A stretch of DNA of 64,000 nt from Leucoraja ocellata (Eukaryota), in assembly GCA_036785375.1 (NCBI GenBank), contig JAWMAR010000152.1, forward strand, positions 2,914,001-2,978,000, written 5' to 3'. Shown piece after piece: positions 2,590 through 62,789 of the stretch (position 1 is its first letter; every line of letters begins with the position of its first letter). The notes below the pieces were generated by a model. The model made no database searches and was not told where the DNA came from. It saw only the letters and a program-made list of their open reading frames with translations. Position numbers and translations under genes: made by a program.

Positions 2590-2785
2590 AGTAGAAAATA
2601 CAAGGGTTACATCCCAGGTCAAGCAGCATCTGTGGAGAGAGAAAGTGTGGCTTTTCCAGTGACTGACCTGAAACATTCATTGTTTTGCTCTCTCTGCAGA
2701 TGCTGCTTGATCTGCAGTGTTATGCCCAGCATTTTGTTCTTCTAAATATCAGATTTTTTGCACCTTCAGCATTTTTATTTTTCAA
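2590..2785. mobile_element. Old Penelope-derived inverted repeat (similar remnants near 10290-10380, 22735-22880, 38080-38200)
   Basis: CAAGCAGCATCTGTGGAGAGAG ... CTCTCTGCAGATGCTGCTTG. Confidence 0.6.
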
Positions 2786-2919
2786 TAATCAAAAAATGAA
2801 TTCCTATTCCACTACTTTCCTGCATAGATGAAGGTGAATACACAAATAATGAAAATTGTCCACTGGACAAGGCCAACTATCATCTTCATAGACATTCCTT
2901 CAAAGAACATTAAAGCATA

Positions 2920-3087
2920 GGTACACAAAAATGCTGGAGAAACTCAGCGGGTGCAGCAGCATCTATGGAGCGAAGGAAATAGGCAACGTTGCCCATCTCC
3001 TTCACTCCATAGATGCTGCTGCACCCGCTGAGTTTCTCCAGCATTTTTGTGTACCTTCGATTTTCCAGCATCTGCAGTTCCTTCTTA
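2920..3087. mobile_element. Penelope-derived hairpin insertion with 14-bp TSD
   Basis: ~140-bp inverted repeat centred on GGCAACGTTGCC; AACATTAAAGCATA at 2906-2919 and 3088-3101. Confidence 0.85.
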
Positions 3088-4166
3088 AACATTAAAGCAT
3101 ACCTATGTGATGGTGATTTAGGATGGGGGGAAAAAAGCCTCTGCATAAAGAATCACAACACAAACTGTTGATAGCAATTTGCAAAAGCTGCTGCCACTGT
3201 TGCTATTTAAATGTGGTCATATTTAGTAAATTTGTAATTCCTGGAAGTGGTATTTTGGACTTGACTTGCTCTATTTGAAACCTGATTGAGAAATGCCCAT
3301 GAATCAGCCATAAAACACAAACTAACACTATAACTTGCAACCTATCATTCTGCCAAACAAGATCATCCAACACGTTTTCATTTTCCTCAAATATTCCAGT
3401 TATTTTCACATATAAATTACTGACACCTATATAATAGAAAACAGCAGGGGTTTTTTTTTGCATACAGCAGTAAGCTAAAAACACCATTGATAAATGATGT
3501 TATTCTCTTTTTTGGCAGATATGAAGAAGAAACGCTCATTATCAGATTAACCAGATCTTTTAACAATGAACTCAAACATCCATTTCACTATTCTGTTCCG
3601 TTATTCATTGTTATTTGTTTTCACAGTTCATCAATGTGAACTGAAGTAATCACCAACAATGCCAATTTAAATGCAAGGAAGAAACCCGTGCACTAAAAAT
3701 ATTTCTGGTGATAGATAGAAGGATAAATCCATCGAATGTAACTCAGTGAAAGCCTAATTTTAAACAAGTCTCACAACACTAATGGACTCATCAGTTCTGG
3801 TAAAGTTTCACTGCACTTTTTGATCAGTTTGCCCAAAACTGTACACAATGTTCTAATTGTTGCCTTAAGATGCTGTCCAGTTCAACGTTTTAACTCGTCT
3901 TTGTATTCTTTTCCTAAGATTTGAAAAAAATCAAGTATTTAATTTGTCCTTTTCTAAAATCAAAATTGCCACATCTTATGGTCCATCGCCAACTTGAATA
4001 GTTTTGTATAGCTGTATATACAAAACTGTATATTGTATATACAAAAGCTGTATATCGAAATCACTTTGTTCCTTTCACTTATCTAAAATGTTGTATTTTC
4101 AGTTAACTATTCTTATTATCAGTCTATTATTTAATAATTTCCCATTTTGAGATGCAAATCATCTAA

Positions 4167-6930: not shown

Positions 6931-8066
6931 GCACAACTACTGAATGGAGGTAAAGAAAATTCTAAAATATTCTCTGAACCTCCATCTTTAATATAGGAAT
7001 TGTGATTAATAAGACCACCTTTATAACTGCCTCAATAAATTCAAGTTAGTCAGGCATGATCTTTCTTTAATAAATCTATGCTGACTGCAGGTGGTTTAGA
7101 CTCTCAGAAATTCTTCCAATAACGCATCAGCTGTTCGAATAACTGTCCTAATTAAAAGAGGTGCACCTCGTTCTACAATTTTTGAACAAGAGTTTGGTTC
7201 ATTGAGAAGGAACAGAATTTTAAAAACCCAATCAATTGTGAGCATTAAACATTTGCTAATTGGCAGAAAAGTCCTAATCAATTGATAGAGACAGAATACT
7301 ACTAACAAAAACAATTCCAGCATGAATTGCATTTAACAAAAAATTGGTAAAGTATTTAGAAAGCCAAGACTAAGATGATCACGAGATGAGAATTATACAG
7401 TACGTTGAAGTTAGCCGTGTGTCCTATGTGCCATGTTTTAACAGATCAGCACCCAAGGAATTTCAAACAGTAATCAAGTAGAAACATAATAAATCTGTGG
7501 TGCTTAACACAAGATGAATCGCCTGTCCCACTTCAGCAAGTATCCTGAATTTGACAATCTCCGACCTGGTGCAGAAATTCAAAGGCCAAGGTATCAGAAG
7601 AAATGATGTTACAATTCCCTTGATCTCTTTTTCTTTCCCCCCTTAAACATAAAATGCTTGCCTGTCTTCTGCTATAAACGTTCCTTTTTTATTGAATGTT
7701 ATTAGAACTGTCAATGAATCAGTCAAGCGGTGCAAATGCAAAGGGAAATTATTTAGACATGACCAGGTAAAATTACAGTTGCCAGATACACACTTATCAC
7801 TACAGATTCTAAGCCAAGCTAGATGTTCATTTATCTGTATCTCAAAGGAAAAGAACCTGCCTTGTCTTAAGACTATACCAATATATCAGCAGCAGTGGCT
7901 TAATTCTGAACTTTCATAAACTAGCAAGTCACCCCAAGTCCATCTCATTCCCAGAGACCTCCTTTCCTCATTCTCCACATCCTACCAGGCTGATTTCAAA
8001 CAAGAATATTGTACAATATAGGGAAACCCCCAGACTAACAAATGTCTTTCCAATATATATCATTTA

Positions 8067-9695
8067 CAGTGCCATCCATAATGTTTGGGACAAAGACCCA
8101 TCATTTATTTATTTGCCTCTGTACTCCACAATTTGAGATTTGTAATAGAAAAAACTTCATGTGGTTAAAGTGCACATTGTCAGATTTTATTAAAGGCAAT
8201 TTTTATACATTTTCGTTTCACCATGTAGAAATTACAGCTGTGTTTATACATAGTCTCCCCCCCCCCCCCCCCCCCATATTTCAGGGCACCATAATGTTTG
8301 GGACACATGGCTTCACAGGTGTGTTTAAATGCCTCCTTAATGCAGGTATAAGAGAGCTCTCAGCACCTAGTCTCCAGTCTTTCCATCACCTTTGGAAACT
8401 TTTATTGCTGCTTATCAAAATGAGAACCAAAGTTGTGCCAATGAAAGTCAAAGAAGCCATCATGCGACTGAGAAACAAGAATAATACTGTTAGAGACATC
8501 AGCCAAACATTGGGCTTACCAAAATCAACTGTTTGGAACATCATTAAGAAGAAAGAGAGCACTGGTGAGGTGACTAATCGCAAAGGGACTGTCAGGCCAA
8601 GGAAGACCTCCACAGCTGATGACAGAAGAATTCTCTCTACATAATAAAGAAAAATCCCCAAACACTTGTCCGACAGATCGGAAACACTCGGGTGTTGATT
8701 TGTCAATGACCATTGTCCGCAGAAGACGTCATGAACAGAAATACAGAGGCTACACTGCAATATGCAAACCATTGGTTAGCCGCAAAAATAGGATGGCCTT
8801 GTTACAGTTTGCCAAGAAGTACTTAAAAGAGCAACCACAGTTCTGGAAAAAAGTCTTGTGGACAGATGAGACGAAGATTAACTTATATCAGAGTGATGGC
8901 AAGAGCAAAGTATGGAGGAGAGAAGGAACTGCCCAAGATCCAAAGCATACCACCTCATCTGTGGGGTATGGTGGTGGGGGTGTTATGGCCTGGGCATGTA
9001 TGGCTACTGAAGGTACTGGCTCACTTATCTTCATTGATGATACAACTGCTGATGGTAGTAGCATAATGAATTCTGAAGTGTATAGACACATCCTATCTGC
9101 TCAAGGTCAAACAAATGCCTCAAAACACATTGGCCTGCAGTTCATTCTACCGCAAGACAATGATCCCAAACATATTGCTAAAGCAACAAAGGGGTTTTTC
9201 AAAGCTAAAAAATGGTCATTTCTTGAATGGATAAGTCAATCACCCAATCTGAACCCAATTGAGCATGGTTTTTATATGCTGAAGAGAAAACTGAAGGTGA
9301 CTAGCCCCCATAAGCTAAAGATGGCTGCAATACAGGCCTGGCAGAGCATCACCAGAGAGACATCCAGCAACTGGTGATGTCCATGAATCACAGACTTCAA
9401 GCAGTTATTGCATGCAAAGGATATGCAACAAAATACTAAACATGGCTACTTTCATTTACATGACATTGCTGTGTCCCAAACGTTACGGTGCCCTGAAATG
9501 TGGGGGACTATGTATAAACACTGCTGTAATTTCTACATGGTGAAACCAAAATGTATAAAAATGGCCTTTATTAAAATTTGACCATGTGCACTTTAACCAC
9601 ATGTGATTTTTTTCTATTACAAATCTCAAATTGTGGAGTACAGAGGCAAATAAATAAATGATGGGTCTTTGTACCAAACATTATGGAGGGCACTG
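8067..9695 (+). mobile_element. Tc1-family (DD34E) DNA transposon, near full length, IR/DR-type ~230-bp TIRs
   Basis: TA|CAGTGCCATCCATAATGTTTGGGACAAAGACCC ... GGGTCTTTGTACCAAACATTATGGAGGGCACTG|CA; inner direct repeat CACCATAATGTTTGGGACA near 8287. Confidence 0.95.
8420..9439 (+). pseudogene. Tc1 transposase, frameshifted
   Basis: HTH (RDISQTLGLPKSTVWNII) and RPRKT in one frame with stop at 8642. VLWTDE, QDNDPKH and SPNLNPIEH (34 residues between D and E) lie in another frame, with a further shift near the C-terminus. Confidence 0.92.
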
Positions 9696-12600
9696 CATAT
9701 AGCCTGGTTTGACCTTTACAACTATTTACAAACTCATGGAATATGGAAAAAACCACCAGAAATATGTGCGTTGATGAAAATGAGTGTGTGTCTAATGCCC
9801 ATGTGTGCAAGAATTAATAACAGCCCAAAACATCCTCAATTACCTACAAAGTGCTTTCTTTCAAAGTAATTCACGGAAGTGGACACTGCTGAATGCTTCA
9901 CTTGTGGCCTATTTTTAATTCTGTGACATTTCAGCCGTTTGCTCTACCATTTTAAAGATCAGTTAAGAGTCAAGCACATTGTTTCGGGATAAAGTTACGT
10001 ATGGACCAGACCTGGAGGACATCGAACTATGTAGTAGCACGGTCATTAAATAACATCAAATAACTCAGAGGCATGGACTAACAATCCACATACCAGAATT
10101 TAAATCCTAGCATGGAGCTTGTGGAATTTAAAATCAATTAAAGGTGTAATTTTTTAATTTATTTTTTAAAAGAGGGACTAGGGGGAGGGGAGAGAAGCAA
10201 TACAGTTAAGCCTTAAATAATATGAATCTACTAGATTGTGGCAAAAAAAGCACCTGATCCACCAACATCCTTCAAGGGAGGAAATCTGGTAATATAAAAG
10301 CTAAAAATATTGGAAACACTCAGCTGGTCAGGCAGCACGTGGGAAAAGAAAAACAGTTATTACTTCAAGTCAAAGACTGTTGTCATCCGGACATGACTAT
10401 ATATGTTATCAGACCCATCAGGGTGGTTGACTTAAATTTCTTCGTAAGCCACTATGTTCAAACAATAAATGCTGGCCTTATCAATGATGCCTAGATCGTG
10501 AAGAATGAATAAATGAAGAACAAGATCTGCTTAACATGGCATTATAGAAAGAAATACAGAACTGACACTAGCCTTTTAGCCAAAGTAGTCCATACATAGC
10601 GTCAACTGCCATCAACACTAATCCTCAATTAATCCTATTCTGTATTCTCTCCACATTCTCAACAACTCCTCCCCCACCCCACCCTTGCACACCTCATCTA
10701 GTCTATCACTCACCTACACACTCGGGTCAATTAACCTCTCAACCACGCATCTTGTGGGAGGAAACTAGAGCTCCCTACCTCTCCTGCCTATGGACTGCAT
10801 GGGCGATCTTAGGAATAGTATCTTGAGAGCCGCCACAATCAACAACATGCTAACAGGAAATGTCTTACACTACATCTGCCACTTGTGACATCCTGCACAT
10901 TTGAGGTTTGGTACAACGCATTTATTTTTGAACAAACTACACACAGTATATGTCTACTCCCTCGCAACTGGAGCAAACTCATTCTCAAGTCCACAATGCT
11001 CACACTTTGTCTTGCGTCTGACAGTCCTGCTAACATGATAGTGCCCTAAATATTGCATGATGGTTACGGCTCCCCGGAGATGCATTTCAGAAATGATGAA
11101 TAATCTCAATGCGGCTGCAAATTCCTGCAGGACGTTCCAATGCGCATGCAGTATTCAGCAATCCATAATCATCGAGAGATGTCTAGAAATGGATTATCGT
11201 TCAGAAGCCTGTAAGCAACCCTGGGCTGCAGACAAAGAACCGCAGTTATGAATGGCTTTTTCATAGCTGCTCTATTGAGGGACGGGAGATCTCAAAGGAT
11301 TCTGCTCTTTTTCCTATGCATCCCTGTAAAACAATCCATTTTCTGTCAGCTTCTAGTTTTAATCAAATTTCCATATGTCCTATATCTGCCTTATTAATGA
11401 GAAGCTATATCCATCATAATATTAAAGGAAGTCATATTAAATGCAGGTAGCAGTTTGTGGACCAATAAATTGAACGCCATGGATTTGATATTGAGACCAG
11501 GGTTAATGATGCACCCTCTAATCAGGTTTAGCAGACACAAGGTTGCTTGGCCATGAAGTAGTTCCTGAAACTCATGAACATTTATGATAACTGCTGCATG
11601 TTTAAGAAGCAAGCATCAATACCACGATCCCCAAAGTCTGCAAATGAGAATGGTCGACTGGAAATATGATTAGCCTGATGTAGGAATCGGGGCAGATGTC
11701 CTCCCCCATTCATGAAACCGCTGAGTTAATTTTGTTTTGTTGCATTATCACGGGCATTGAGAAAGATGCAACTAACACGAGTCAGTTTGAAAACTGTATG
11801 AAGAGCATAAAGGTTCAAAATTATTGCTTCACTCATGTGTTTATCATCGATTTCTGACCACTTTCCCCCCCATAATCACAGTCAAAGAAGCACTGATGTT
11901 GCTATATAATCTAAAGAACAAGAACATTGCCATTAACCTAGTGGCAGCATTGCTGCCTGAAACTCCCAGGTCGAGCTTCAGCCTACACTCCTAATAGCAC
12001 CAGTTCAGGTTAACATCTTACACGATACCCAATATCAGAGGGAAACACCAGTCCCTCATCACAAGTTACTGAAATCCCCCCAAAAACTCCCAATGTATAT
12101 GACCAGCTGAGGCAACATGCACATTCCATAGATGAACCTTTTTTGCAAAGCATCAACTTTGAACTTTTTCACTCCAAAAGAAAACTAAAGAACATGTCGT
12201 CTTCTCGAAACAGCAGCTGAAAGGGACAACATTGTGTTTTGACTCTGTGCTAGCCCATTGAACTTAAAAAAAAAACATGCTATAAATCACCTGAACAAAC
12301 TAGAACAAAATTGTTTAACACTCTCTCATCAAACCTAGACCTGAAGTGACGCCTGTCAACATTTTTGTAGACTAGCACGTGATATGAAGAGTACAGAATA
12401 TACAATTGGGAAAGACGGAAGCAGTACGATGAAACAGTTCCGAGAAGTACACATGTTGCAAGGGAAATCGTTCGAAGCATCACCTTTCTGCAACATCACG
12501 GTAACTTTTTTTGTGAGCAAACATGACACATGGTTTCCTGAGAGCATACAAAAATAGGCAATTCTCCTATAGTATGTGGAGGAGGAGGAAGACTGAAAAA

Positions 12601-21094: not shown

Positions 21095-21581
21095 CTGAAA
21101 AACAAGATAAGATTCTGAATTAAACAAAATAATATTTTGAGGAGCAAAAGAATATCGATCACCAACAAAATCTGTGCAAAAAATATGCTTTGCAGTTCAA
21201 GTCAGCAGAGATTTTTATCTGTACAATGACAATTGGTCTCAAAAACCACGCATGGTCATAACTCAATTTCCAATCCAACCACGCATGGTCATTGCCCACT
21301 AAAATCAAGGACTCCAATCATCTTTACAAGCTATTCGAATAAATAAGAAACACTAATTGGATATGCAACATATCAGCACATCTAATCCCTATAACATCTT
21401 TTAAAATACATCTCCTTCAAGGAAACAATTTTAAAAAACAAACCAATTATTTTATTTTACCAAAGCAGTTTTTAGTGCCAGTGCACAATAATCCCGCTGT
21501 GCTAAAACCAATATAGTACCACATCGGGGCATAGAAAACAAGTGTAGGGAGTAGTTGGTATAGTCTCATTGAAGAGAAGGG

Positions 21582-21896
21582 CAGGACAAGGGGTCACAGC
21601 TTAAGGATAAGGGGGAAATCCTTTAAAACCGAGATGAGAAGAACTTTTTTCACACATAGAGTGGTGAATCTCTGGAACTCTCTGCCACAGAGGGTAGTTG
21701 AGGCCAGTTCATTGGCTATATTTAAGAGGGAGTTAGATGTGGCCCTTGTGGCTAAGGGGATCAGGCGGTATGGAGAGAAGGCAGGTACGGGATACTGAGT
21801 TGGATGATCAGCCATGATCATATTGAATGGCGGTGCAGGCTCGAAGGGCCGAATGGCCTCTACTCCTGCACCTATTTTCTATGTATCTATGTTTCT
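21582..21896 (+). mobile_element. Short 3' copy of the same CR1 family
   Basis: Nearly identical to 47682-47994; AAGGG on both flanks. Confidence 0.9.
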
Positions 21897-29296: not shown

Positions 29297-29400
29297 GGTC
29301 TGAGGATGGGTCTCGACCCGAAAAGTCACCGATTCCTTCTCTCCAGAGATGTTGCCTGTCCCGCTGACTTACTCCGGCTTTTTGTGTCTATCTTCAGTTT
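29297..29400 (+). mobile_element. Short Penelope-derived insertion beginning at the hammerhead motif
   Basis: AAACCAATG at 29288-29296 and 29401-29409; CTGAGGATGGGTCTCGACCCGAAAAGTC. Confidence 0.8.
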
Positions 29401-36399: not shown

Positions 36400-37812
36400 C
36401 AGTGCCCTCCATAATGTTTGGGACAAAGACCCATCATTTGCCTCTGTACGCCACAATTTGAGATTTATAATAGAAAAAGTCACATGTGGTTAAAGTACAC
36501 ATCGTCCGATGTTAATAAAGGCTATTTTTATACACAGTGTTTAAGAAGGAACTGCAGATGCTGGAGAATCGAAGGTACACAAAAAAGCTGGAGAAACTCA
36601 GCGGGTGCAGCAGCATCCACATTTCAGGGCACCATCATGTTTGGTACACAGCAATGTCGTGTAAATTAAAGTAGTCATGTTTAGTATTTTGTTGCATGTC
36701 CTTTACATGCAATGACTGCTTGAAGTCTGTGATTCATGGACATCACCAGTTGTTCGGTGTCTTCTCTGGTGATGCTCTGCCAGGCCTGTATTGCAGCATC
36801 TTTAGCTTATGCTTGTTCTGGGGGCTAGTCCCTTTGTTTTCTCTTCCGCGTATAAAAGGCATGCTCAATTGGGTTCAGATCAGGCGATTGACTTGGCCAC
36901 TCAAGAATTGACATTTTTTTAGCCTTGAAAAACTCCTCTGTTGCTTTATTATTTGAGGCATTTGTCTGAACTTGAGCATATAGGATGTGTCTATACACTT
37001 CAGAATGTATTATGCTACTACCATCAGCAGTTGTATCATCAATGAAGATAAGCGAGCCAGTAGCTTCAGCAGCCATACATGCCCAGGTCATAACACCCCC
37101 CCACCCCCACCATAACACCACCACCACAGATGAGGTGGCATGCTTTAGATCTTGGGCAGTTCCTTCTCTCCTCCATACTTTGCTCTTACCATCACTCTGA
37201 TATGTTCATCTTCATCTCATCTGTCCACAAGACTTTTTTCCAGAACTGTGGTTGCTCTTGGCAAAGTACTTCTTGGCAAACCGTCACTTGCAGTTTGCAT
37301 CTTGCAGTGTAGTCTCTGTATTTCTGTTCATGAACTCTTCTGCAGACAGTAGTCATTGACGAATCTGCACCCAACTCCTGAAGAATGTTTCTGATCTGTC
37401 AGACAGGTGTTTGGGGATTTTTCTTTATAATAGAGAGAATGATTCTGTCATCAGCTGTGGAGGTCTTCCTTGGCCTGCCAGTCATTTGTGATTAGTAAGC
37501 TCACCAGTGCTCTCGTTCATCTTAATGATGTTCCAAACAGTTGATTTTGGTAAGCCTAAGGTTTGGCTGATGCCTCTGACAGTTTTATTCTTGTTTCTCA
37601 CTCATAATGGCTTCATTGACTTTCATTGGCACAACCTTGGTTCTCATGTTGATAAACAGCAATACAAGTTTCCAAAGGTGATGGAAAGACTAGAGGAAAG
37701 ACTAGGTGCTGAGAGCTCTCTTATACCTGCATTGAGGAGGCACTTAAACACACCTGAGCAATTACAAACGCCTGTGAAGCTATGCGTCCCAAACATTATG
37801 GTGCCTTGAAAT

Positions 37813-37845
<33 letters not shown>

Positions 37846-38038
37846 GAAACTATGTCTTAACACAGCTGTAATTTCTACATGGTGAAACCAAAATGTATAA
37901 AAATGGCCTTTAATAAAATCTGACAATGTGCACTTTAACCACATGTGATTTTTTTTCTATTACATATCTCAAATTGTGGAGTACAGAGGCAAATAAATAA
38001 ATGATGGGTCTTTGTCCCAAACATTATGAAGGGCACTG
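36400..38038 (-). mobile_element. Second copy of the same Tc1 family, opposite orientation, degraded transposase
   Basis: TA|CAGTGCCCTCCATAATGTTTGGGAC ... GTCCCAAACATTATGAAGGGCACTG|TA; minus-strand fragments FWKKVLWTDE and WPSQSPDLNPIEHAF. Confidence 0.95.
36535..36618 (-). mobile_element. Penelope terminal fragment nested in a Tc1 TIR
   Basis: TTTAAGAAGGAACTGCAGATGCTGGAGAATCGAAGGTACAC..CAGCAGCATC, reverse complement of the 59050-59124 unit. Confidence 0.8.
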
Positions 38039-39265
38039 TATTTACTTAGAAGATACCATGGTTGTATTTATCATTCAAGCTGATGAAAGATTATCAACCT
38101 GAAATGTTTATTCCGTTTCTCTCTCCGCAGAAGGTCCTTGATCTGCTGAATATTTCTTGTATTCTGTGTTTTTATTTTATTTTAAAACCTGCGGTTCTTT
38201 GCTTTGAAGCAATATATCAAGTCCCATAAAAGTGGCACCAATCAGGTGAACAATTCCAAAATAGGTGATGCTGAGCTTTTGTAGTGGTGTTGCGGCTGTA
38301 CATGCGCAAGTCAATAATCAATATTGCTTTTTCCAAACAAACTACAATTTTGTGGAATCTTATGGATGATGGGAAGGCTTTGAGGAGTAAAAACACTGTC
38401 TCACTCTTTTTAAAATATGAAGCTTCTGTCCTGGTCTAATATATGGGCCATCCAAAAACAAAACTCAAGAACGGTAGTGCCCTTGACGATTTCGGGGGAA
38501 ATAGCTGGAAACTCTTAAGATGGTCATTGCACCAAACAGTGAAATAGTGCAAATGTTATCTGCAAATGCACAAGGGCTTCATAATCAGATGAACTGCTCT
38601 CATCAGTGAAGAGTCCCACTCATAATTTTATAATAAGGGAAAATCATCAATGATGATTAGGCCTAGAATATTTCCCTATGAAATACCAGCAGAAATTGCT
38701 CTGGGGACAGTAATTGGCTTCTAGCAATACCTCCCTGCAAATCGAAAATGGTGGATCATTTTCGCTTGAATCCAGTTTTGCTAAAACTCAAATACTGCCT
38801 TCATACAGGGCCAGCTAGCCTATACTCTCGTTCAGTATTCAAGCTATTGCATTCACATGTGGAGCCACATAGTTGTGGCAACAGAACAATAAATAGATTA
38901 TTGATAAGACAGTATTAATTGATGAGACTGCTGTTAAGTACATTCAATTGATAATTAGAAAGTCAAAATAGTAATTGTCTGTTTTAGATTGATCATTTTT
39001 TCGGTTTTGTTCTAAATGAACATCTTGGGAAATAACCAGTCCAAAAGGTTCTGAAATGCAGTCCACTTGCTTACCATTAACATACTGAATTTGATCACTG
39101 AATGGAACAACACCGAGTTGACATTGAACTGTTAGTCAGTTGTTTCAAAAGGAGGCCCAAATCCAAAATTCTAACATTTTACAATTGTTGATCTTTTACT
39201 ATTCATGGTAATATCCAGAATTGAAATATATTCACAATTAGCAAGTACTGTTGCCAAGCCCTCAC

Positions 39266-43759: not shown

Positions 43760-44640
43760 CTCAGTTTGCGCCAATGCAACAAGTACTGCCCCTACACCAC
43801 GCCAACGTAACTGGCCTGGCCCCCTTTCTACACCAATGCAGCCACTCGGACTTGGTTTTGCGCCAATGCAGCTGCTCAGACTGTGCTTCGTGCCAATGCA
43901 ACCCTTTAGACCGTGCTTCATGCCAATGTAACAGCTCAGACTGTTTCGCACCAATGCAACCACTCAGACTCAGTTTCCCCAACAACGCATAGCTCAGACG
44001 CAGTGTTGCGCCAATGCAACCGCTCAGATGCAGTTTCGCGCCAATGCAACCGCTCAGATGCAGTTTTGCGCCAATGCAACCGCTCAAACGTAGTTTTGCG
44101 CCAATGCAACCGCTCAGATGCAGTTTTGCGCCAATGCAACTGCTCAGATGCAGTTTCGTGCCAATGCAACCGCTCAGATGCAGTTTCGCGCCAATGCAAC
44201 TGCTCAAACGCAGTTTTGCGCCAATGCAACCGCTCAGACGCAGTTTTGCGCCAATGCAACCCCTCAGATGCAATTTTCGCGCCAATGCAGCCGCTAAGAC
44301 AGGTTTGCGCCAAATGCAACTGCTCGGATGCAATTTTGCATCAATTCAACCGCTAAAATGCAGTTTTGCGCCAATGTAACTGCTCAGATATAATTTTGCA
44401 TAAATGAAACCACTATGAAACAGTTTTGCGCCAATACAATTGCTCAGACCCAGTTTTGAGCCAATGCCACTACTCAGCCAATTTTGTCATTACAACCGCT
44501 ACGCCTAGATTTGCATAAATCTAAACACTCAGCCCAATTTTGCGCCAATGCAAACCCCACAACCCAATTTTGCACAAATTCAAACTGCACAGTCCAAATT
44601 GGCGCCAATGCATCTAGCCTAATTTTGCACTAATGCGCTT
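43760..44640. repeat. 30-bp minisatellite, ~29 units
   Basis: Consensus GCGCCAATGCAACCGCTCAGATGCAGTTTT; homogeneous core ~44005-44275, degenerate flanks. Confidence 0.95.
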
Positions 44641-46961: not shown

Positions 46962-47081
46962 CTTCTTCTTTGTTGCTGTCAATATTTGGACAGTCAATGG
47001 ACATTCCAGGCTGTGTCACTGACATTTTATTCAAATTCTTCATCCGTGACTGCCTCTGACGGACCATAAATCCACCAATTC
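46962..47081 (-). CDS. KMT2D: KMT2D exon (120 nt)
   Basis: GIGGFMVRQRQSRMK..NKEE. Confidence 0.9.
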
Positions 47082-47195
47082 CTAAAACAAAAATCAGAAG
47101 TGTGTTTGTTCTGTCTTCTTAATACCATTTACTTTCCCTTTCATAATTCACCCCTATTATTTAGCTTTACCAGTCAAGATATGGTGCAGCAGGCT

Positions 47196-47994
47196 AATTT
47201 TGGTGGCAAAAACGGGAAAGCAGACTATTATCTAAATGGTGGCCGATTGGGAAAGGGGGAGATGCAACGAGACCTGGGTGTCATGGTACACCAGTCATTG
47301 AAGGTAGGCATGCAGGTGCAGCAGGCAGTAAAGAAAGCGAATGGTATGTTAGCTTTCATTGCAAAAGGATTTGAGTATAGGAGCAGAGAGGTTCTACTGC
47401 AGTTGTACAGGGTCTTGGTGAGACCACACCTGGAGTATTGCGTACAGTTTTGGTCTCCAAATCTGAGGAAGGACATTATTGCCAAAGAGGGAGTGCAGAG
47501 ACGGTTCACCAGACTGATTCCTGGGATGTCAGGACTGTCTTATGAAGAAAGACTGGATGGACTTGGTTTATACTCTCTAGAATTTAGAAGATTGAGAGTG
47601 GATCTTATATAAACTTACAAAATTCTTAAGGGGTTGGACAGGCTAGATACAGGAAGATTGTTCCCGATGTTAGGGAAGTCCAGGACAAGGGGTCACAGCT
47701 TAAGGATAAAGGGGAAATCCTTTAAAACCGAGATGAGAAGAACTTTTTTCACACAGAGAGTGGTGAATCTCTGGAACACTCTGCCACAGAGGGTAGTTGA
47801 GGCCAGTTCATTGGCTATATTTAAGAGGGAGTTAGATGTGGCCCTTGTGGCTAAGGGGATCAGGGGGTATGGAGAGAAGGCAGGTACGGGATACTGAGTT
47901 GGATGATCAGCCATGATCATATTGAATGGCGGTGCAGGCTCGAAGGGCCGAATGGCCTACTCCTGCACCTAATTTCTATGTTTCTATGTTTCTA
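47196..47994 (+). mobile_element. CR1-clade LINE, 5'-truncated, young
   Basis: RDLGV..KANGMLAFI..LYRVLVRPHLEYCVQFWSP..EGVQRRFTRLIPG; one TAA at 47610; (TTTCTATG)n tail. Confidence 0.92.
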
Positions 47995-52307: not shown

Positions 52308-52449
52308 TTTAAGAAGGAACTGCAGATGCTGGTAAATCGAAGGTACACAAAAAGGTCTGAAGCAGGGTTTCGGCACGAAACGTTGCCTTTTCTTTCGCTC
52401 CATAGATGCTGCTGCACCTGCTGAGTTTCTCCAGCATTTTTGTGTACCT
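52308..52449. mobile_element. Penelope-derived partial hairpin with degenerate hammerhead
   Basis: AAGGAACTGCAGATGCTGG..GGTCTGAAGCAGGGTTTCGGCACGAAACGTTGCC..TTTTTGTGTACCT. Confidence 0.8.
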
Positions 52450-53311: not shown

Positions 53312-54470
53312 ATTAAAAGAATTGGCAAATTGGATCCAAAATTGACTTCATGACGGGAGACAGAGGTTGATGGTGGATGGGTTTTTTGTGATCGCAAGGC
53401 TGTGACCAGTTATGTACCACAGGGATCGCTGCTGGGACCCCAACTTTTATCATATACATTAACAATTTGGATATGAATGTAGTAAGTATAATTAATAAAT
53501 TTGCAGATGACATGAAAATTGGTAGTGTTGTTGATTGTGAGGAGGATAGTCTTACATTATAGAAAGATACCGAGCAGTTTGTTAAATGGGCAGAACAATG
53601 ACAGATGTAATTTAGTCCCGACAAGTGTGAAATGAAATAAAAGCAGAAAATGGTGGGAAAACTTAGCAGGTATTTGTGGAAATAGAAACAGGTTAAGTTT
53701 CAAACTTGATCATATGTGACGAGAGAGATAAATTAATCCTGGTAAAAGCGCAGGTTGGGGGGAAAGGAAAAGGTGGATCAAAACAGATCCCCTGAGATGC
53801 GGTGAAATAACACACGAGCTGTTAAGCTTCTTCGCGTTGCTTTGTTGTAAATGTTTTGTCTATTAGGACGTACCCTATAGTCCACACAAGTGTGAGGTAA
53901 TGTACTTTGGGAAGACTCATTAGGGTAGGACATGCAGGCAGGGGAGAGGATAGGGTGGATCAAGGGGATCTTCTGGGATGGGGTGAAATAACGTACGAGC
54001 TGTTAAGCCTCAGTGTTGTAAATGTTTCATCTACTGGGACATGCCTAAAGTGCACACAAGTGTGAGGTAATGCACTTTGGGGAGAACTCATTAGGGTAGG
54101 ACATGCACAATGAATGGTAGACCATATGGAATATTGAGCAATAGAGAGATCTCGGGTGTACAAGACGAAGGATCCCAGAAGCTGGCAGCACCGGTAGATA
54201 AATAACGAAGAAGGTGTAGGGATATGAGCCTTCATTAGTCATGGCATAGAAATAAAAGATCAGGGGACAATGGCACAGCTTTGTAAATCATTGATTGGTC
54301 CACAGCTAGAGAACAGTGTGAGGTTCTAGTAACCACACAATAGGAAAGATATGTTTGCACTGAAATGAGTGCAAAGAAGATTTAATAGTACATTGACTGG
54401 GATGGAGTGTTCATGAGGAAAGATTGCAGAGACTGCTTGCGTTCCTTCAGGTAGAGAAGGCCAGCATGAT
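53312..54470 (+). mobile_element. Old CR1 RT fragment interrupted by an insertion and a local duplication
   Basis: VPQGSLLGP.LFIIYINNLD..INKFADDMKIG; interrupted after ACAAGTGTGA at 53630. Confidence 0.8.
53772..54106. repeat. Diverged two-copy tandem duplication (~180-bp period)
   Basis: GGTGGATCAA..GGTGAAATAAC..CGAGCTGTTAAGC..CACACAAGTGTGAGGTAATG..CTCATTAGGGTAGGACATGCA at 53772-53936 and 53954-54106. Confidence 0.9.
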
Positions 54471-56420: not shown

Positions 56421-56575
56421 TGTCAGAGCCAAACTTTGAGGGGAGAAAAATAGTATGTGCACTCGCATGCCGACACATTTAATCACGCTTATCGGCAGCC
56501 ATCTCCCCAAGTATTCAACCTCGTTCCCATTTTAACTGCCTAAAGGCAGAAACAACTATTTTCCCCTGTCCTCAC

Positions 56576-57669
56576 CTGTTTGACCCGAGGTCGACCTGGT
56601 GAGAAACGTCGCTTCATAACTGCAGGCTTGCCAGATTCACCTTTCATCATACCAGGGTCAGCTGGCAAGGAATCCTCGGTTTCTGTTAGCCGCAAGTCTG
56701 AATTTGATTTTTCAGCCTCATCGTCCAGCCTTGGAGAAATATCATCTGTTGCCGTCATACAAACGTCCATTGAAACCAAACCAGCATCACGGTCCAAAGT
56801 ATTTGAAAAATCTGGTTCCAAGCAGGTGCTATTTGAGTCGGTTTGACTTTGATTTGACATCTCCTCCACAATCTCAGATTTAATGAGCATGTTACAGGCA
56901 GAGTCTGTGCTTACAGCATCCTGCACTTCCATCTGAGTATCTTGCTCAGTCTTCACCCTATTGCCTGCAGGTACAACCTCCATAGGAGTCGCTTCATCAT
57001 TATTGTCCATCTCAACAGGCTCTCGCTTAGTCTCCATTCCATCAGAGACCAAGTCAGAAACATCACCTCTGTCCACAGACCCACAAGTTGAATCAGCAGG
57101 AATATCACAGAGTTCAGTTTTATCTTTATGGATTTTGTCAGTCTCCTGCTTGATAACAAAGGAAGCACCATCTTGCTGTGTTTCAGCAGAAGCACTGACA
57201 GAATCCATCAAGTCAGGGTCTGTGGCAAGGTGATTGGCTTTTGTCTCCTGCGGAATGGAACTATTGGGATGAGCATCGGTGTCTGCTTGAATGCAGGTCT
57301 CCTCCGCCTGGTCTAAGCTTTCCATTTTTATTTCCTTTGTCTGTAAGAAATGTTCTGGTTGATCTGTCTTATCTGAACTAGAGTGTTCTGTAAATTCGGT
57401 TTCTGTAGACTCCAGTGAACTTTTAATGCTCTCTGATGGTGGTCCATCTGTCCCACCTTCACAGGTCTTATGAATCTCTGTGTTATGAGAAGACTGGGAT
57501 CCCTCAGTGAGATGTTCATGTTCAGTTTCTTTCTCTGCAGTCGAGACTCCAACTCCATTTTCCTCCAAAGGAGCAAGAGACGGAGATTCTACCCGTTCCA
57601 CGGCGTCAACGCCAGAAATTTGTTGCTTTGGATTTTCCAGTTCCACGTTACCACCTGCGTTGATAGAAT
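56576..57669 (-). CDS. KMT2D: KMT2D exon (1094 nt), acidic disordered region ending RRFSPGRPRVKQ
   Basis: ORF 56540..57694; gtttttgttag acceptor and CAG|gtgag donor; LIKSEIVEEMSNQSQ.D and KRRFSPGRPRVKQ motifs. Confidence 0.9.
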
Positions 57670-58726
57670 CTAACAAAAACATTTCAATTAGCACAGTATT
57701 GGTAAGCTCTCCATCACCTATCCTCCACCGACATCATTAACCTTCTTTATAACTATGCCATTGACGGGTTTAAAAACTAATTATTACAAATTAAGTTTGA
57801 AGAACAAAGGAGTTCTTGAAATCATTAGAATCCGAGTACATGATGCAGTAGAGTTATTTGGTTTGGATTCGAAATACCAGTTTTCAGGAGCTCCATAACA
57901 ATTTGTGCGAGATGGCATAAATGAAGAAAACATTTCACAATATTTAAATGCTTCAGTTGCAATGCCCACTGGCATTTCAGTAAGGTACGTATGTGAATTT
58001 ATAAAGAATTTGTAATTCCCTCCCATGTTTTGTTTTCCAAAAGCTGTCTACCTCACTGTGTTACCTGCAAGACTAAAAAAAAATGTGGGTTCAAAAGCCA
58101 TAATGGGTACAAGCTCAGTCTAAGTCAACATTTGATGTTGTATAAAATATATTCTGCAAACAAGTTTAAAACCTAGATTCCTTGTTGCCCTTCAATAGCC
58201 TATGGGAATATGGTAAACATTAACAAAATATTGGTATATGATATGCTGGTCAACATTTCTCACAAGCAAAAACAGATAAAGTGTTTCTCTTATATCTTTC
58301 CACAGAGTATTGTTAGTACAGAATGGTGCTGAATTAACCTGCGTAACAGTAACTTCTACATAAACGAGTAAGAGTCTCCAAACTAAAATAATCCATTGTG
58401 CAATCTTCCCAGGTCACCTTGTGGACATCGTTTTTTCATTGCATTCATTGATGTATTAGTGGCAGCACTCAATGGAAACAGTAACAGCCAAACAAATTAT
58501 TAGTGATGAAATGCAGGTTCAAGTGGCCAGTGAGGCCAACCAGTAGACTTGATTCTGAAGAGCATAAACAGTGGCATCCAAGCACCAGGTGTGGTTGAAG
58601 ATGCAGTGTAATGAGTGGGTGATTTACAAAACTGCAAAATGTAGTAGGCCCACAAAAAGACAAAGATGGATCTTAAGCATGGAATTAACTTGGTGATGGA
58701 ACTGTTACAAGCAAGGCAAAACATCA

Positions 58727-59124
58727 CCCCCTCCCATTCCCAATCCGACCTCTCTGTCCTGGGTCTCCTCCATTGCCAGAGTGAGCAACAGCGGAAATTG
58801 GAGGAACAGCACCTCATATTCCGCCTGGGGACCTTGCATTCGGATGGCATTAACATTGAATTCTCCCAAATTTGCTAGCCCTTGCTGTCTCCTCCCCTTC
58901 CTTAACCCTCTAGCTGTCTCCTGCCACCCTCCTATCCGCCCGCCCTCGGGCTCCTCCTCCTCCCCTTTTCCTTCCTTCTCCCCCCCCAGCCCCCATCAGT
59001 CTGAAGAAGGGTTTCGGCCCGAAACGTCGCCTATTTCCTTCACTCCATAGATGCTGCTGCACCCGCTGAGTTTCTCCAGCAATTTTGTGTACCTTCGATT
59101 TTCCAGCATCTGCAGTTCCTTCTT
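58727..59124 (+). mobile_element. Penelope-like element 3' end: C-terminus of GIY-YIG endonuclease ORF plus terminal repeat
   Basis: PSHSQSDLSVLGLLHCQSEQQRKLEEQHLIFRLGTLHSDGINIEFS*, then a pyrimidine-rich tract and the terminal unit repeated elsewhere in the window. Confidence 0.85.
58995..59034 (+). ncRNA. Minimal type I hammerhead ribozyme-like motif in Penelope terminal repeat
   Basis: CTGAAGA-A-GGGT(TTCG)GCCC-GAAA-CGTC: core boxes, stem II, palindromic ACGT stem III and GUC triplet; stem I weak. Confidence 0.65.
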
Positions 59125-59294
59125 GGACAACATTAGTAATCTTATTAGTGCTCCATGAAATTGGTACACATAAAGGTTTGGATATTTTCAATATGGTCAA
59201 TTAAAAAACATTTAGACGGTTTCAATGGAGTGTACGTGGAAGTCTGATGTTTTTCCCCTGAACCCTCCTTAATTGGATTAGCAATGCAAGATCA

Positions 59295-59400
59295 CAAGAG
59301 ACTGCAGAAGCTGCAATTTTGAGCAAAAGTGCTGAAGGAACTTCACGGATCAGGTAGCATTTGTGGAGAGAATGGACAGATGACATTTCGGGTGGGGACT
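59295..59400 (-). mobile_element. Older Penelope terminal fragment
   Basis: ACTGCAGAAGCTGC..GTGCTGAAGGAACT..CAGGTAGCATTTGTGGAG..GACATTTCGGG. Confidence 0.6.
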
Positions 59401-59900
59401 GGTTGTGTTTCATTAGAAATGTTGTTTTTCAATAATTCTATTCCCATCCACCCACACACAACATTAATTCTGCTTTCTCCTAATTCAATATGTTAATGTA
59501 TGTGAAAGCATTAATTCCTCCTGCGCGCCGCTTTTCCTAACAAATGGTCATATTCCAACAGCAGTCTCAGGTTGTCTGAATGATGAAAATCAGTAGAGTA
59601 CAGGGGGCAGGGTAGAGAGAAAAATCAGTTAAGCTACGCACTCTGCAAGCGATTATTTTATTGCACTGGGTTAATAGTCTAGAATTACATACCCAAAAAC
59701 ATGCAAGCTCAATCAAAGGATTCTAGCAGGACAAAAACTAAGACAGAATGGATGTTTCAGGCAGCAAATATTGAAACTATTTGATTTTGTTTATGAAAAT
59801 AAATTCAGTTGTACAAAAGGGACATGAAAATAACAGTTACAAGTCTAGAGCACATGTCACAACAGATTAAACAACCACAGTTTAAGAGGAGATTTCTCAC

Positions 59901-61814: not shown

Positions 61815-62481
61815 CTGAGAATAAGAAATCCAACAAGCTCATGAAAAACATAAAACTTTAAACTGCAAAGATAAAATAGACGTATGAACTAAATACTGGA
61901 AAGAATATTATTACAACTCAATCCTAATCAGAATCTCTGATATCATTTGAATCCCGGATTGCAAATTGGAAAAATAAAAACATCGGACTTCCCTGAAGGA
62001 GGGTAAAAGCTGTGGACAAGCATTACTGATCTCACACTCCAGCTAAGAACTAGAGTGGATGACGGACTCTTAAAATGAGGAGGATATTACAGTAATATGT
62101 CACCTAAAACTAATTGAAAAGGATTGAATGAAAGTGCAAATAGCGCAAATACCAAAAAATGTTACTGCCGATCACGTGAAAGCGTGGCCAGTTAGCTTAA
62201 ATGGGATAGTTACCGAGGCAAAAGTTCTACACAATTGTATACAAGACTTCACTAACTACGTTCTTGGTTGAAGAACATTAAAATTCACCAACATTCACTT
62301 GTAACCCAAATATGTTATCACTAAACAACAGGAAGGGAAAGAAAAAAAGCTCTTAAACGGTTTAAAAAAAACTATGTATGCTATGCTGTGATTTATGATG
62401 GAACCAATTGACAATAATGGCTGTTGCTAATCTAACAGTCTTTCCAGACCAAATTAATAACTAACGTCAGAAGCCACTTAC

Positions 62482-62669
62482 TTTTGGCAGATATGGCAGT
62501 TTAAAGTGTCATCTGTTTGTCCATTTGTTTTACCACATATCGTACACACAGCACTGTCCCTGTTCCTTTGCCAGTAACATTTCTCACAAACGGAGTAGTT
62601 CTGATGCCACTGCGTATTGGCATGTTTCCCTGCAGATCTTGAACCACAATCACTGCACACACGACAGTT
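62482..62669 (-). CDS. KMT2D: KMT2D exon (188 nt), Zn-knuckle plus start of an extra PHD finger
   Basis: ttttctgcag|AAC..AA|gtaagt; NCRVCSDCG..WHQNYSVCEKC..CTICGK..CHICQ. Confidence 0.92.
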
Positions 62670-62789
62670 CTGCAGAAAAGAATTTGGAAGTGAAATTGGT
62701 TTGAATATGTCAAATCCCATCTTTTAACCATATGACAATGGCAGCTTCTCAAACGAGTAAAATAAGGTTGGAACAGTTCCATAAGTTGC

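What the first reader, a model, noticed from the sequence alone, without database searches (positions are those of the whole stretch)
58727..59124. Penelope-like retroelement end carrying a hammerhead ribozyme core inside a KMT2D intron
Seen: a GIY-YIG-type C-terminal peptide ends at 58878. At 59001-59028 comes CTGAAGA-A-GGGT(TTCG)GCCC-GAAA-CGTC, which has the CUGANGA and GAAA boxes, a UUCG-capped stem II, a self-complementary ACGU in place of stem III and a GUC triplet. Known: Penelope-like elements carry minimal type I hammerheads in their pseudo-LTRs, which are thought to cleave as dimers through the palindromic stem III. Inference: this copy shows the parent structure of the short repeats scattered through the window. 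Caveats: stem I is weak here (ATCAGT vs GCCTAT) and there is one extra A after the CUGANGA box.
Basis: partly seen in the sequence, partly recalled or inferred. Interest (0 to 1): 0.75.

Follow-up and report, generated by a model that had tools for sequence, protein, structure and literature searches.

The report
Penelope retroelement tail with minimal hammerhead
This is the broken-off end of a very common jumping gene (a Penelope-like retroelement) lying backwards in an intron of the KMT2D gene of what is likely a skate or ray; it carries a known type of minimal self-cutting RNA motif that is likely inert here, and the family's many short copies begin just before that motif, likely at a capped transcript start.

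Summary
Observation confirmed. Window 58727-~59128 (+) is a 5'-truncated Penelope-like element (PLE): the last 49 residues of a GIY-YIG endonuclease, a pyrimidine-rich 3' UTR, a minimal type I hammerhead (59001-59028) and the pLTR tail. It lies antisense in a KMT2D intron, so the ribozyme is not in the host pre-mRNA. One public run holds the empty site. The core fits the published PLE min-HHR consensus; the 'extra A' is part of that consensus, not a flaw. Stem I is truly weak (2 bp), there is no intact partner on the same strand, and the active fold is not predicted. The same core sits within 300 nt downstream of PLE endonuclease ends in 31 of 107 outside matches, with covarying stem I. The family is huge (about 100,000 contigs laid per run). 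One new lead: many short copies start at A58998/G58999, the +1/+2 of a TCAGTC initiator match 3 nt before the core, often behind an extra G. They do not start at the cut site in the rows shown. This suggests capped, uncleaved RNA as the template. Known kind, new member; cleavage untested.

The parts
58727..58878 (+). 3' end of the PLE ORF: last 49 residues of a GIY-YIG endonuclease (58729-58875) plus stop; 5' truncation point at 58727
   Evidence: 86% identical to a skate fragment whose upstream part hits Pfam GIY-YIG weakly (E 0.008); 66 relatives; aligns to the C-terminus of 38 of 54 full-length RT+EN relatives; family reads continue upstream of 58727 with ORF sequence (table 7)
58879..58997 (+). 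pyrimidine-rich 3' UTR / upstream part of the pLTR (83% C+T over 58879-58999, ending in CAG)
   Evidence: variable in length among family copies (tables 4-5)
58996..59001 (+). TCAGTC, exact TCAKTY initiator match with A+1 = 58998; the place where many short copies begin (inferred transcription start)
   Evidence: loose ends before 58998/58999 with non-consensus flanks in 4 of 4 runs (table 7); motif from 10.1101/2025.11.21.689830; 0.002 matches per position in the window
58999..59030 (+). minimal type I hammerhead: stem I 2 bp (58999-59000 with 59029-59030), CUGAAGA, extra A, 4-bp stem II, GAAA, ACGU palindrome, GUC with predicted cut after 59028
   Evidence: covariation in relatives
59031..59093 (+). 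rest of the pLTR; inverted sibling arms end at about 59089-59093
   Evidence: alignment of 14 window segments
59094..59128 (+). ~35-nt tail, the 3' end of the insertion; 59118-59124 is predicted to pair with the ribozyme core 59004-59010
56543..57733 (-). downstream KMT2D exon region (stop-to-stop ORF; true exon limits not mapped)
62460..62693 (-). upstream KMT2D exon region

Best explanation
This is the 3' end of a Penelope-like retroelement with a minimal hammerhead motif in its pseudo-LTR, lying antisense in a KMT2D intron; it was likely inserted by target-primed reverse transcription that stopped early, and it is likely inert at this site. In the parent element (inferred) the pLTR drives a Pol II transcript from the initiator at A58998. 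The RT-endonuclease starts cDNA synthesis inside the RNA at the tail. Starting at a downstream tail gives copies that run back into the ORF and break off, like this one. Starting at the 5'-most tail gives the ~130-nt hammerhead-to-tail copies that litter the window. The hammerhead would cut after GUC only when two motifs pair through ACGU and probably with help from the element's protein; it would not be needed for insertion.
For: Shown: anatomy and coordinates. Endonuclease C-terminus; P0034, which shares this C-terminus at 58%, leads to 54 proteins of 734-1126 aa, and the three scanned all hit RVT_1 and GIY-YIG. Empty site in run X1: one 2617-nt contig joins 58724 to 59129 across one base, with 12 differences in 397 flank bases; X7 bridges the 5' junction. 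16 family segments in the window in about 12 insertions, 5 of them head-to-head inverted pairs (the fifth pair), with 14-, 14-, 14- and 9-nt target-site duplications in 4 of 8 insertions examined. Outside relatives: 123 core matches in 120 metagenome loci; 31 of the 107 with enough upstream DNA have a PLE endonuclease end within 300 nt on the same strand, against 1 of 77 downstream. N17 is A/C/U in 66 of 67 distinct sequences, and stem I averages 2.85 bp against 1.77 for shuffled partners (0 of 2000 shuffles reach it). From papers: consensus CUGANGAH...GAAAN-palindrome-NUH, no monomer activity and low dimer activity (PMC4209133); internal initiation at the tail, protein-assisted cleavage, cleavage not needed for insertion (PMC11167929).
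Against: No cleavage was measured. No RT or catalytic GIY-YIG motif is left in this copy, so the ORF link runs through homologs. Rfam gives no hammerhead hit. Stem I is 2 bp, shorter than in 45 of 67 distinct relatives (3 bp or more). The hammerhead fold has pairing probability of about 0.01 or less, and no folded stretch beats shuffles (z +1.0 to -1.2). Stem II shows no two-sided change in the 31-row alignment, but the search pattern fixed 3 of its 4 pairs. This copy has no real target-site duplication (2 nt at most). The outside relatives were selected by a pattern containing the core, so core conservation there is circular; only stem I, N17 and ORF position are free tests.
Confidence: 0.88

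Rival explanations
1. The hammerhead is a vestige in this subfamily: the sequence is kept because it overlaps the internal promoter and the protein-binding RNA fold, and it no longer cuts.
For: 2-bp stem I; the tail is predicted to pair with the core at p about 0.88; C17 reads T in 33-57% of depth across the four runs; no read start or end pile-up in RNA run X24 (table 6); 6 of 7 window cores are broken.
Against: Published min-HHRs include 2-bp stems I and U17; Anolis PLE HHR is inactive alone yet cuts with protein (PMC11167929); broken cores are expected in dead copies; poly(A) fragment reads are a weak test.
Confidence: 0.35
2. The short copies begin at 58998-58999 because of a 3' splice site (pyrimidine tract then CAG) or a reverse-transcriptase block, not a transcription start.
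For: 120-nt pyrimidine tract ending in CAG at 58997-58999; in D. virilis an intron ends at helix I (PMC4209133); the cDNA strand there is rich in G runs.
Against: Spliced templates would share an upstream exon, but loose ends before 58998/58999 have agreement 0.31-0.35 and look like A/T-rich flank. An acceptor would start the exon at 59000. Neither route explains the extra G.
Confidence: 0.25
3. The copy has been co-opted by KMT2D, for example as a ribozyme that cuts or a signal that regulates the pre-mRNA.
For: It sits in an intron of a dosage-sensitive gene (recalled); it is the only intact core in the window; present in at least organism C as well as the window.
Against: It is antisense, so the ribozyme is not in KMT2D RNA; none of the host-sense segments carries an intact core; it is absent in organism A at about 3% flank divergence; it differs from a sibling at only 4 of 102 bases, so intactness is what a young copy shows.
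Confidence: 0.03
4. The short copies are an independent SINE or retrozyme family and the ORF fragment is a chance neighbour.
For: The hammerhead-to-tail part is laid about 3-9 times deeper than the ORF end.
Against: One insertion event brought both parts (empty site); the same order and similar spacing recur in 31 of 107 outside matches; no tandem array at the locus; siblings show PLE-type inverted arms and tails.
Confidence: 0.04

Closest known systems
[quoted passage not shown]
   Same: CUGANGA plus one extra base, G10.1-C11.1, GAAA, palindromic 15.2-16.2 with no loop 3, NUH; the Acropora, Culex, fugu and lamprey rows have the same C-G-U-C ending.
   Different: No cartilaginous fish is among the 56 aligned rows; stem I is 2 bp and stem II 4 bp, at the short end of the published range.
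EN+ PLEs of the Neptune/Nematis type (Craig et al. 2021, PMC8557442)
   Same: C-terminal GIY-YIG; relatives carry the CX2-5CxxC linker (45 of 54 full-length hits by pattern; also P0009, P0034); pLTR with HHR, 30-40-nt tail, inverted 5' arms.
   Different: This copy keeps only 49 residues; clade not tested by an RT tree.
PAc, Poseidon from Anolis (Frangieh et al. 2024, PMC11167929)
   Same: HHR at the pLTR, tail marking the RT start, A/T-rich targets, uncleaved RNA as insertion substrate in vitro.
   Different: Different clade by linker motif; in the parts read no capped start or extra G at 5' junctions is reported.
Non-LTR retrozymes (Li, Clavereau and Pollet 2026, 10.64898/2026.07.22.740005)
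   Same: Non-coding, type I HHR-bearing derivatives of PLE pLTRs; also found in the one chondrichthyan sampled.
   Different: Retrozymes are head-to-tail tandem arrays with two or more complete HHRs; the copies here are solo or head-to-head.

Membership tests
EN+ Penelope-like element | C-terminal GIY-YIG endonuclease | tested here: met
   49-aa peptide aligns to C-termini of GIY-YIG proteins; the catalytic motif itself is truncated away
EN+ Penelope-like element | telomerase-like RT in the same ORF | tested here: inconclusive
   absent from this truncated copy; present in homologs reached through P0034; no full-length copy from this genome available
EN+ Penelope-like element | pLTR with hammerhead downstream of the ORF | tested here: met
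   core starts 123 nt after the stop; same arrangement in 31 of 107 outside matches
EN+ Penelope-like element | optional 30-40-nt tail | tested here: met
   copies end either near 59089-59093 or near 59128
EN+ Penelope-like element | inverted 5' pLTR arms and target-site duplications among copies | tested here: met
   5 head-to-head pairs in about 12 window insertions; 9-14-nt duplications in 4 of 8 examined; this copy has neither, which is also reported for PLEs (PMC3846280)
Neptune/Nematis clade | CX2-5CxxC linker before GIY-YIG | tested here: inconclusive
   seen in homologs only
Neptune/Nematis clade | RT phylogeny | not tested
   no RT from this family in hand
min-HHR (type I) | CUGANGA, extra base, G10.1-C11.1 stem II, GAAA, palindromic 15.2-16.2, NUH | tested here: met
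min-HHR (type I) | helix I closing the core | tested here: inconclusive
   2 bp (G-C, U-G) here; 3 bp or more in 45 of 67 distinct relatives, with two-sided changes
min-HHR (type I) | self-cleavage as dimer or with protein | not testable with these tools
   needs bench assay; RNA run showed no end pile-up, a weak test
Rfam hammerhead families | score at gathering threshold | tested here: not met
non-LTR retrozyme | head-to-tail array with two or more complete HHRs | tested here: not met
   no tandem array at the locus; one intact core in the window

The most novel reading that the evidence does not exclude
In this family the genome records the 5' end of the RNA that was copied: short copies start at the initiator A+1/G+2 three bases before the hammerhead core and carry an extra G from the reverse-transcribed cap. 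Most insertions then come from capped, uncleaved RNA primed at the 5'-most tail, the tail folds back to shut the core, and the ribozyme acts as a decapping brake or release step, not as the maker of the template. The many copies make the open question of what PLE hammerheads do countable from sequence alone.
Probability: 0.45. Interest if true: 0.55.

Novelty: new member of a known kind. Interest (0 to 1): 0.3.

Why it matters
The locus itself is ordinary: a dead, antisense retroelement fragment. The PLE-hammerhead link is published, though I found no description for cartilaginous fish PLE pLTRs. The family matters more than the copy. The role of PLE hammerheads is stated as unclear (PMC8557442), and one in vitro study found cleavage unnecessary for insertion (PMC11167929). 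A family this large with a sharp 5' boundary before the core would give in vivo, genome-wide evidence on whether cleaved or uncleaved RNA is inserted, and would explain how solo pLTR copies arise. The presence/absence of this copy among close relatives is also a usable phylogenetic marker.

Tried and rejected
No whole genome is held, so no genome-wide copy collection or family consensus could be made. Rfam: nothing. Pfam on the window peptide alone: nothing. PDB sequence search with P0034: 0. Folding gives no thermodynamic support for the ribozyme. AACAT on both sides of the insertion looked like a target-site duplication but both copies are in the empty allele. pLTR translation shows no credible match to ORF N-termini. 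The RT domain in the top hit P0001 sits in a chimeric-looking protein, so I did not use it as evidence for a PLE RT. The initiator idea did not generalise to the outside loci (TCAKT in 2 of 67; no clear extra G in the two families listed). Four searches found no paper that states the cap-derived G; that mechanism is recalled. Earlier scan findings: none by sequence or place; those listed concern other PLE types.

Full report
Observation. A descriptor demanding both boxes, a G-C-closed stem II, a palindromic 15.2/16.2 and NUH finds only this site in 64 kb and none in 200 resampled windows. Rfam has no hit.

Host. An 839-aa minus-strand ORF gives 30 hits, best 78% to whale-shark KMT2D-like, and no hit named KMT2C. 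Seven KMT2D homologs map minus-strand exons in order from 63877 down to 345, with the element between the exons near 62.5 kb and 57.7 kb. The element reads on the plus strand, so it is antisense and its ribozyme is not part of KMT2D pre-mRNA. The animal is likely a skate or ray (inference from 86% and 69% peptide identity to Leucoraja and Rhinoraja fragments). No assembly is held.

The ORF fragment. The 49 residues at 58729-58875 found 6 proteins among 13 candidates and 66 cluster representatives. Of 21 of these scanned against Pfam, 5 hit GIY-YIG at E 0.002 or better, 2 of them above the curated cut-off. One, P0034, carries RT-like motifs, the Cys linker and the endonuclease in one frame. It retrieved 54 long proteins. 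The three scanned hit both RVT_1 and GIY-YIG, the window peptide aligns to the C-terminus of 38 of the 54, and 45 of 54 show a CX2-5CxxC linker, the mark of Neptune and Nematis PLEs in PMC8557442 (passages). The clade is therefore likely Neptune-type but untested.

Limits and age. I laid 4 of 24 listed runs on 58500-59300. In X1 (organism A) one 2617-nt contig joins 58724 to 59129 across a single base: the empty site, with 12 differences in 397 flank bases. In X7 (organism C) a contig runs 58 nt into the element. In X2 (organism B) flanks are identical and a contig crosses the 3' junction by 25 nt, short of the tool's 31-nt bridging rule. So the insertion is about 403 nt, 58727-59128, has at most a 2-nt duplication, and likely postdates the split from organism A. 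The family is huge: 96,764-134,323 contigs laid per DNA run and 10,587 of 7.3 million RNA reads, 94% of which run on into unrelated sequence.

Siblings. The window holds 16 family segments in about 12 insertions, 8 segments on each strand (the profile was built from 14 of them). Five are head-to-head pairs, and 4 of 8 examined have 9-14-nt duplications. Inverted arms stop near 59089-59093 while primary arms run ~35 nt further: the pLTR-plus-tail pattern described in PMC3846280 and PMC8557442 (passages). Of 7 core-bearing copies only this one passes every min-HHR feature; the two on the host-sense strand are broken at C3/U16.1 and at G12.

The ribozyme. PMC4209133 (main text parts 1-2 of 4, supplement parts 1-2 of 3) gives the consensus CUGANGAH, G...C, GAAAN, palindrome, NUH and lists the extra base as a conserved trait. 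Monomers were inactive and dimers weakly active. These belong to distant families. Among 67 distinct sequences N17 is A, C or U in 66; stem I averages 2.85 bp against 1.77 with shuffled partners (0 of 2000); pair 2.2-1.2 is C-G 40, U-A 9, G-C 4. A PLE endonuclease end lies within 300 nt upstream on the same strand in 31 of 107, opposite strand in 4, downstream in 1 of 77. A hand-picked 31-row alignment (27 of the 67 plus 4 window copies) shows two-sided changes in all four stem I pairs and none in stem II, which the pattern largely fixed. Relatedness inflates these shuffle tests. Against function in this copy: stem I is 2 bp, the active fold has probability near 0.01 or less, a dimer target of -13.3 kcal/mol loses to a -24.2 alternative, and the tail is predicted to pair with the core. 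Within the family, stem II position 59017 alternates G/A opposite U, which keeps the pair, and C17 often reads T (117 variant rows were not shown, so core conservation could not be counted).

How it likely works. PMC11167929 (parts 1-2 of 4; supplement search empty) shows for an Anolis PLE that RT starts inside the RNA at the tail, that the HHR cuts only with the protein, and that cleavage is not needed for insertion. Applied here (inference): priming at a downstream tail gave this copy, which broke off 400 nt later; priming at the first tail copies only as far as the RNA's 5' end.

The new lead. Depth over the hammerhead-to-tail part is about 3-9 times that over the ORF end, with the step in the bin 58986-59012. 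Among the 24 loose-end rows shown (1814 hidden), all four runs have ends before 58999 and two before 58998, with flank-like consensus. None is shown before 59029, the cut site. The consensus letter next to the element is G in 4 of 4 rows at 58999 and 1 of 2 at 58998, and all 3 shown joints into 58998 carry a single G (12 of 525 rows shown). Longer copies read through TCAGT here. T-C-A-G-T-C at 58996-59001 is an exact TCAKTY match, the strongest initiator with A as +1 (10.1101/2025.11.21.689830, passages); such matches occur at 0.002 per position. Penelope has an internal promoter with an Inr (PMC2377424, passages). An extra G from copying the cap is recalled knowledge; four searches did not find it in the library. 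Against: in the window one copy clearly shows the G (29297), two are ambiguous (52354, 24699), one lacks it (30073) and two start at C3/U4. At 58999 the neighbouring letter cannot be A by construction. Depth also rises between 59013-59039 and 59040-59066 in the contig runs, which could hide copies starting at the cut. The pair at 2912-3092 joins at the AACGTT palindrome, so one arm may start at the cut. TCAKT precedes only 2 of 67 outside cores, though I count it by eye in 10 of 56 published rows. RNA run X24 shows no start or end pile-up. I put the capped-uncleaved reading at 0.45.

Comparison and verdict. It works like, and by every feature testable here is, a published PLE min-HHR at the 3' pLTR. 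It is not a non-LTR retrozyme as defined in 10.64898/2026.07.22.740005 (part 1 of 5 and passages; its supplements are closed and may list related chondrichthyan families). I found no paper describing hammerheads in cartilaginous-fish PLE pLTRs (PMC6155905, PMC6431247 and PMC13000458 passages gave nothing on this). New member of a known kind; interest 0.3, carried mostly by the 5'-end lead.

Noticed in passing
window 58996-59001, 29297-29300, 52354-52357: Short family copies start at an initiator-like TCAGTC three bases before the hammerhead core, often behind an extra G; possible record of a capped transcript end.
   Followed up: partly
window 2906-3101: Head-to-head pair with a 14-nt duplication whose junction is the ribozyme's own stem III palindrome (AACGTT), next to the cut site.
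   Followed up: partly
window 59004-59010 with 59118-59124; 59049-59057 with 59104-59112: The tail is predicted to pair with the ribozyme core and to close a long hairpin over the whole short unit; z only -1.2.
   Followed up: partly
window 58716-58931, RNA run X24: Reads over the ORF end and 3' UTR lie 1.4-2.4 times more often with the first mate on +, against about 1.1 over the hammerhead part. If the library is dUTP-stranded, long copies are under-represented in sense orientation in host transcripts.
   Followed up: no
window 2595-2739, 10303-10388, 38078-38167, 59312-59403: Old, decayed members of the same pLTR family, pointing to several waves of activity.
   Followed up: no
window 8065-9701 and 36617-38044: Two Tc1/mariner DNA transposon copies in opposite orientation with long terminal inverted repeats; ORF 8574-9374 hits HTH_Tnp_Tc3_2 and DDE_3.
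   Followed up: no
window 43833-44612: 30-nt minisatellite, about 21 copies, open in several frames on both strands; may or may not be part of a KMT2D exon.
   Followed up: no
window 21573-21859, 47070-47958, 53390-53631: LINE-like 3' fragments: a 287-nt pair at 98% identity and an RT-like stretch.
   Followed up: no
L006, L010, L020, L039, L049, L094, L110: In a distant family short and inverted copies also start at one place about 15-19 nt before the hammerhead core, without a clear extra G.
   Followed up: partly
L073:540-583 (-): An outside hammerhead with the same TCAGT upstream but a perfect 3-bp stem I (AGU/ACU).
   Followed up: no
P0001, P0002, P0009: Database gene models in cartilaginous fish (P0001, P0002; P0009 unnamed) end in this element's endonuclease fragment, either annotation artefacts or exonisation.
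   Followed up: no
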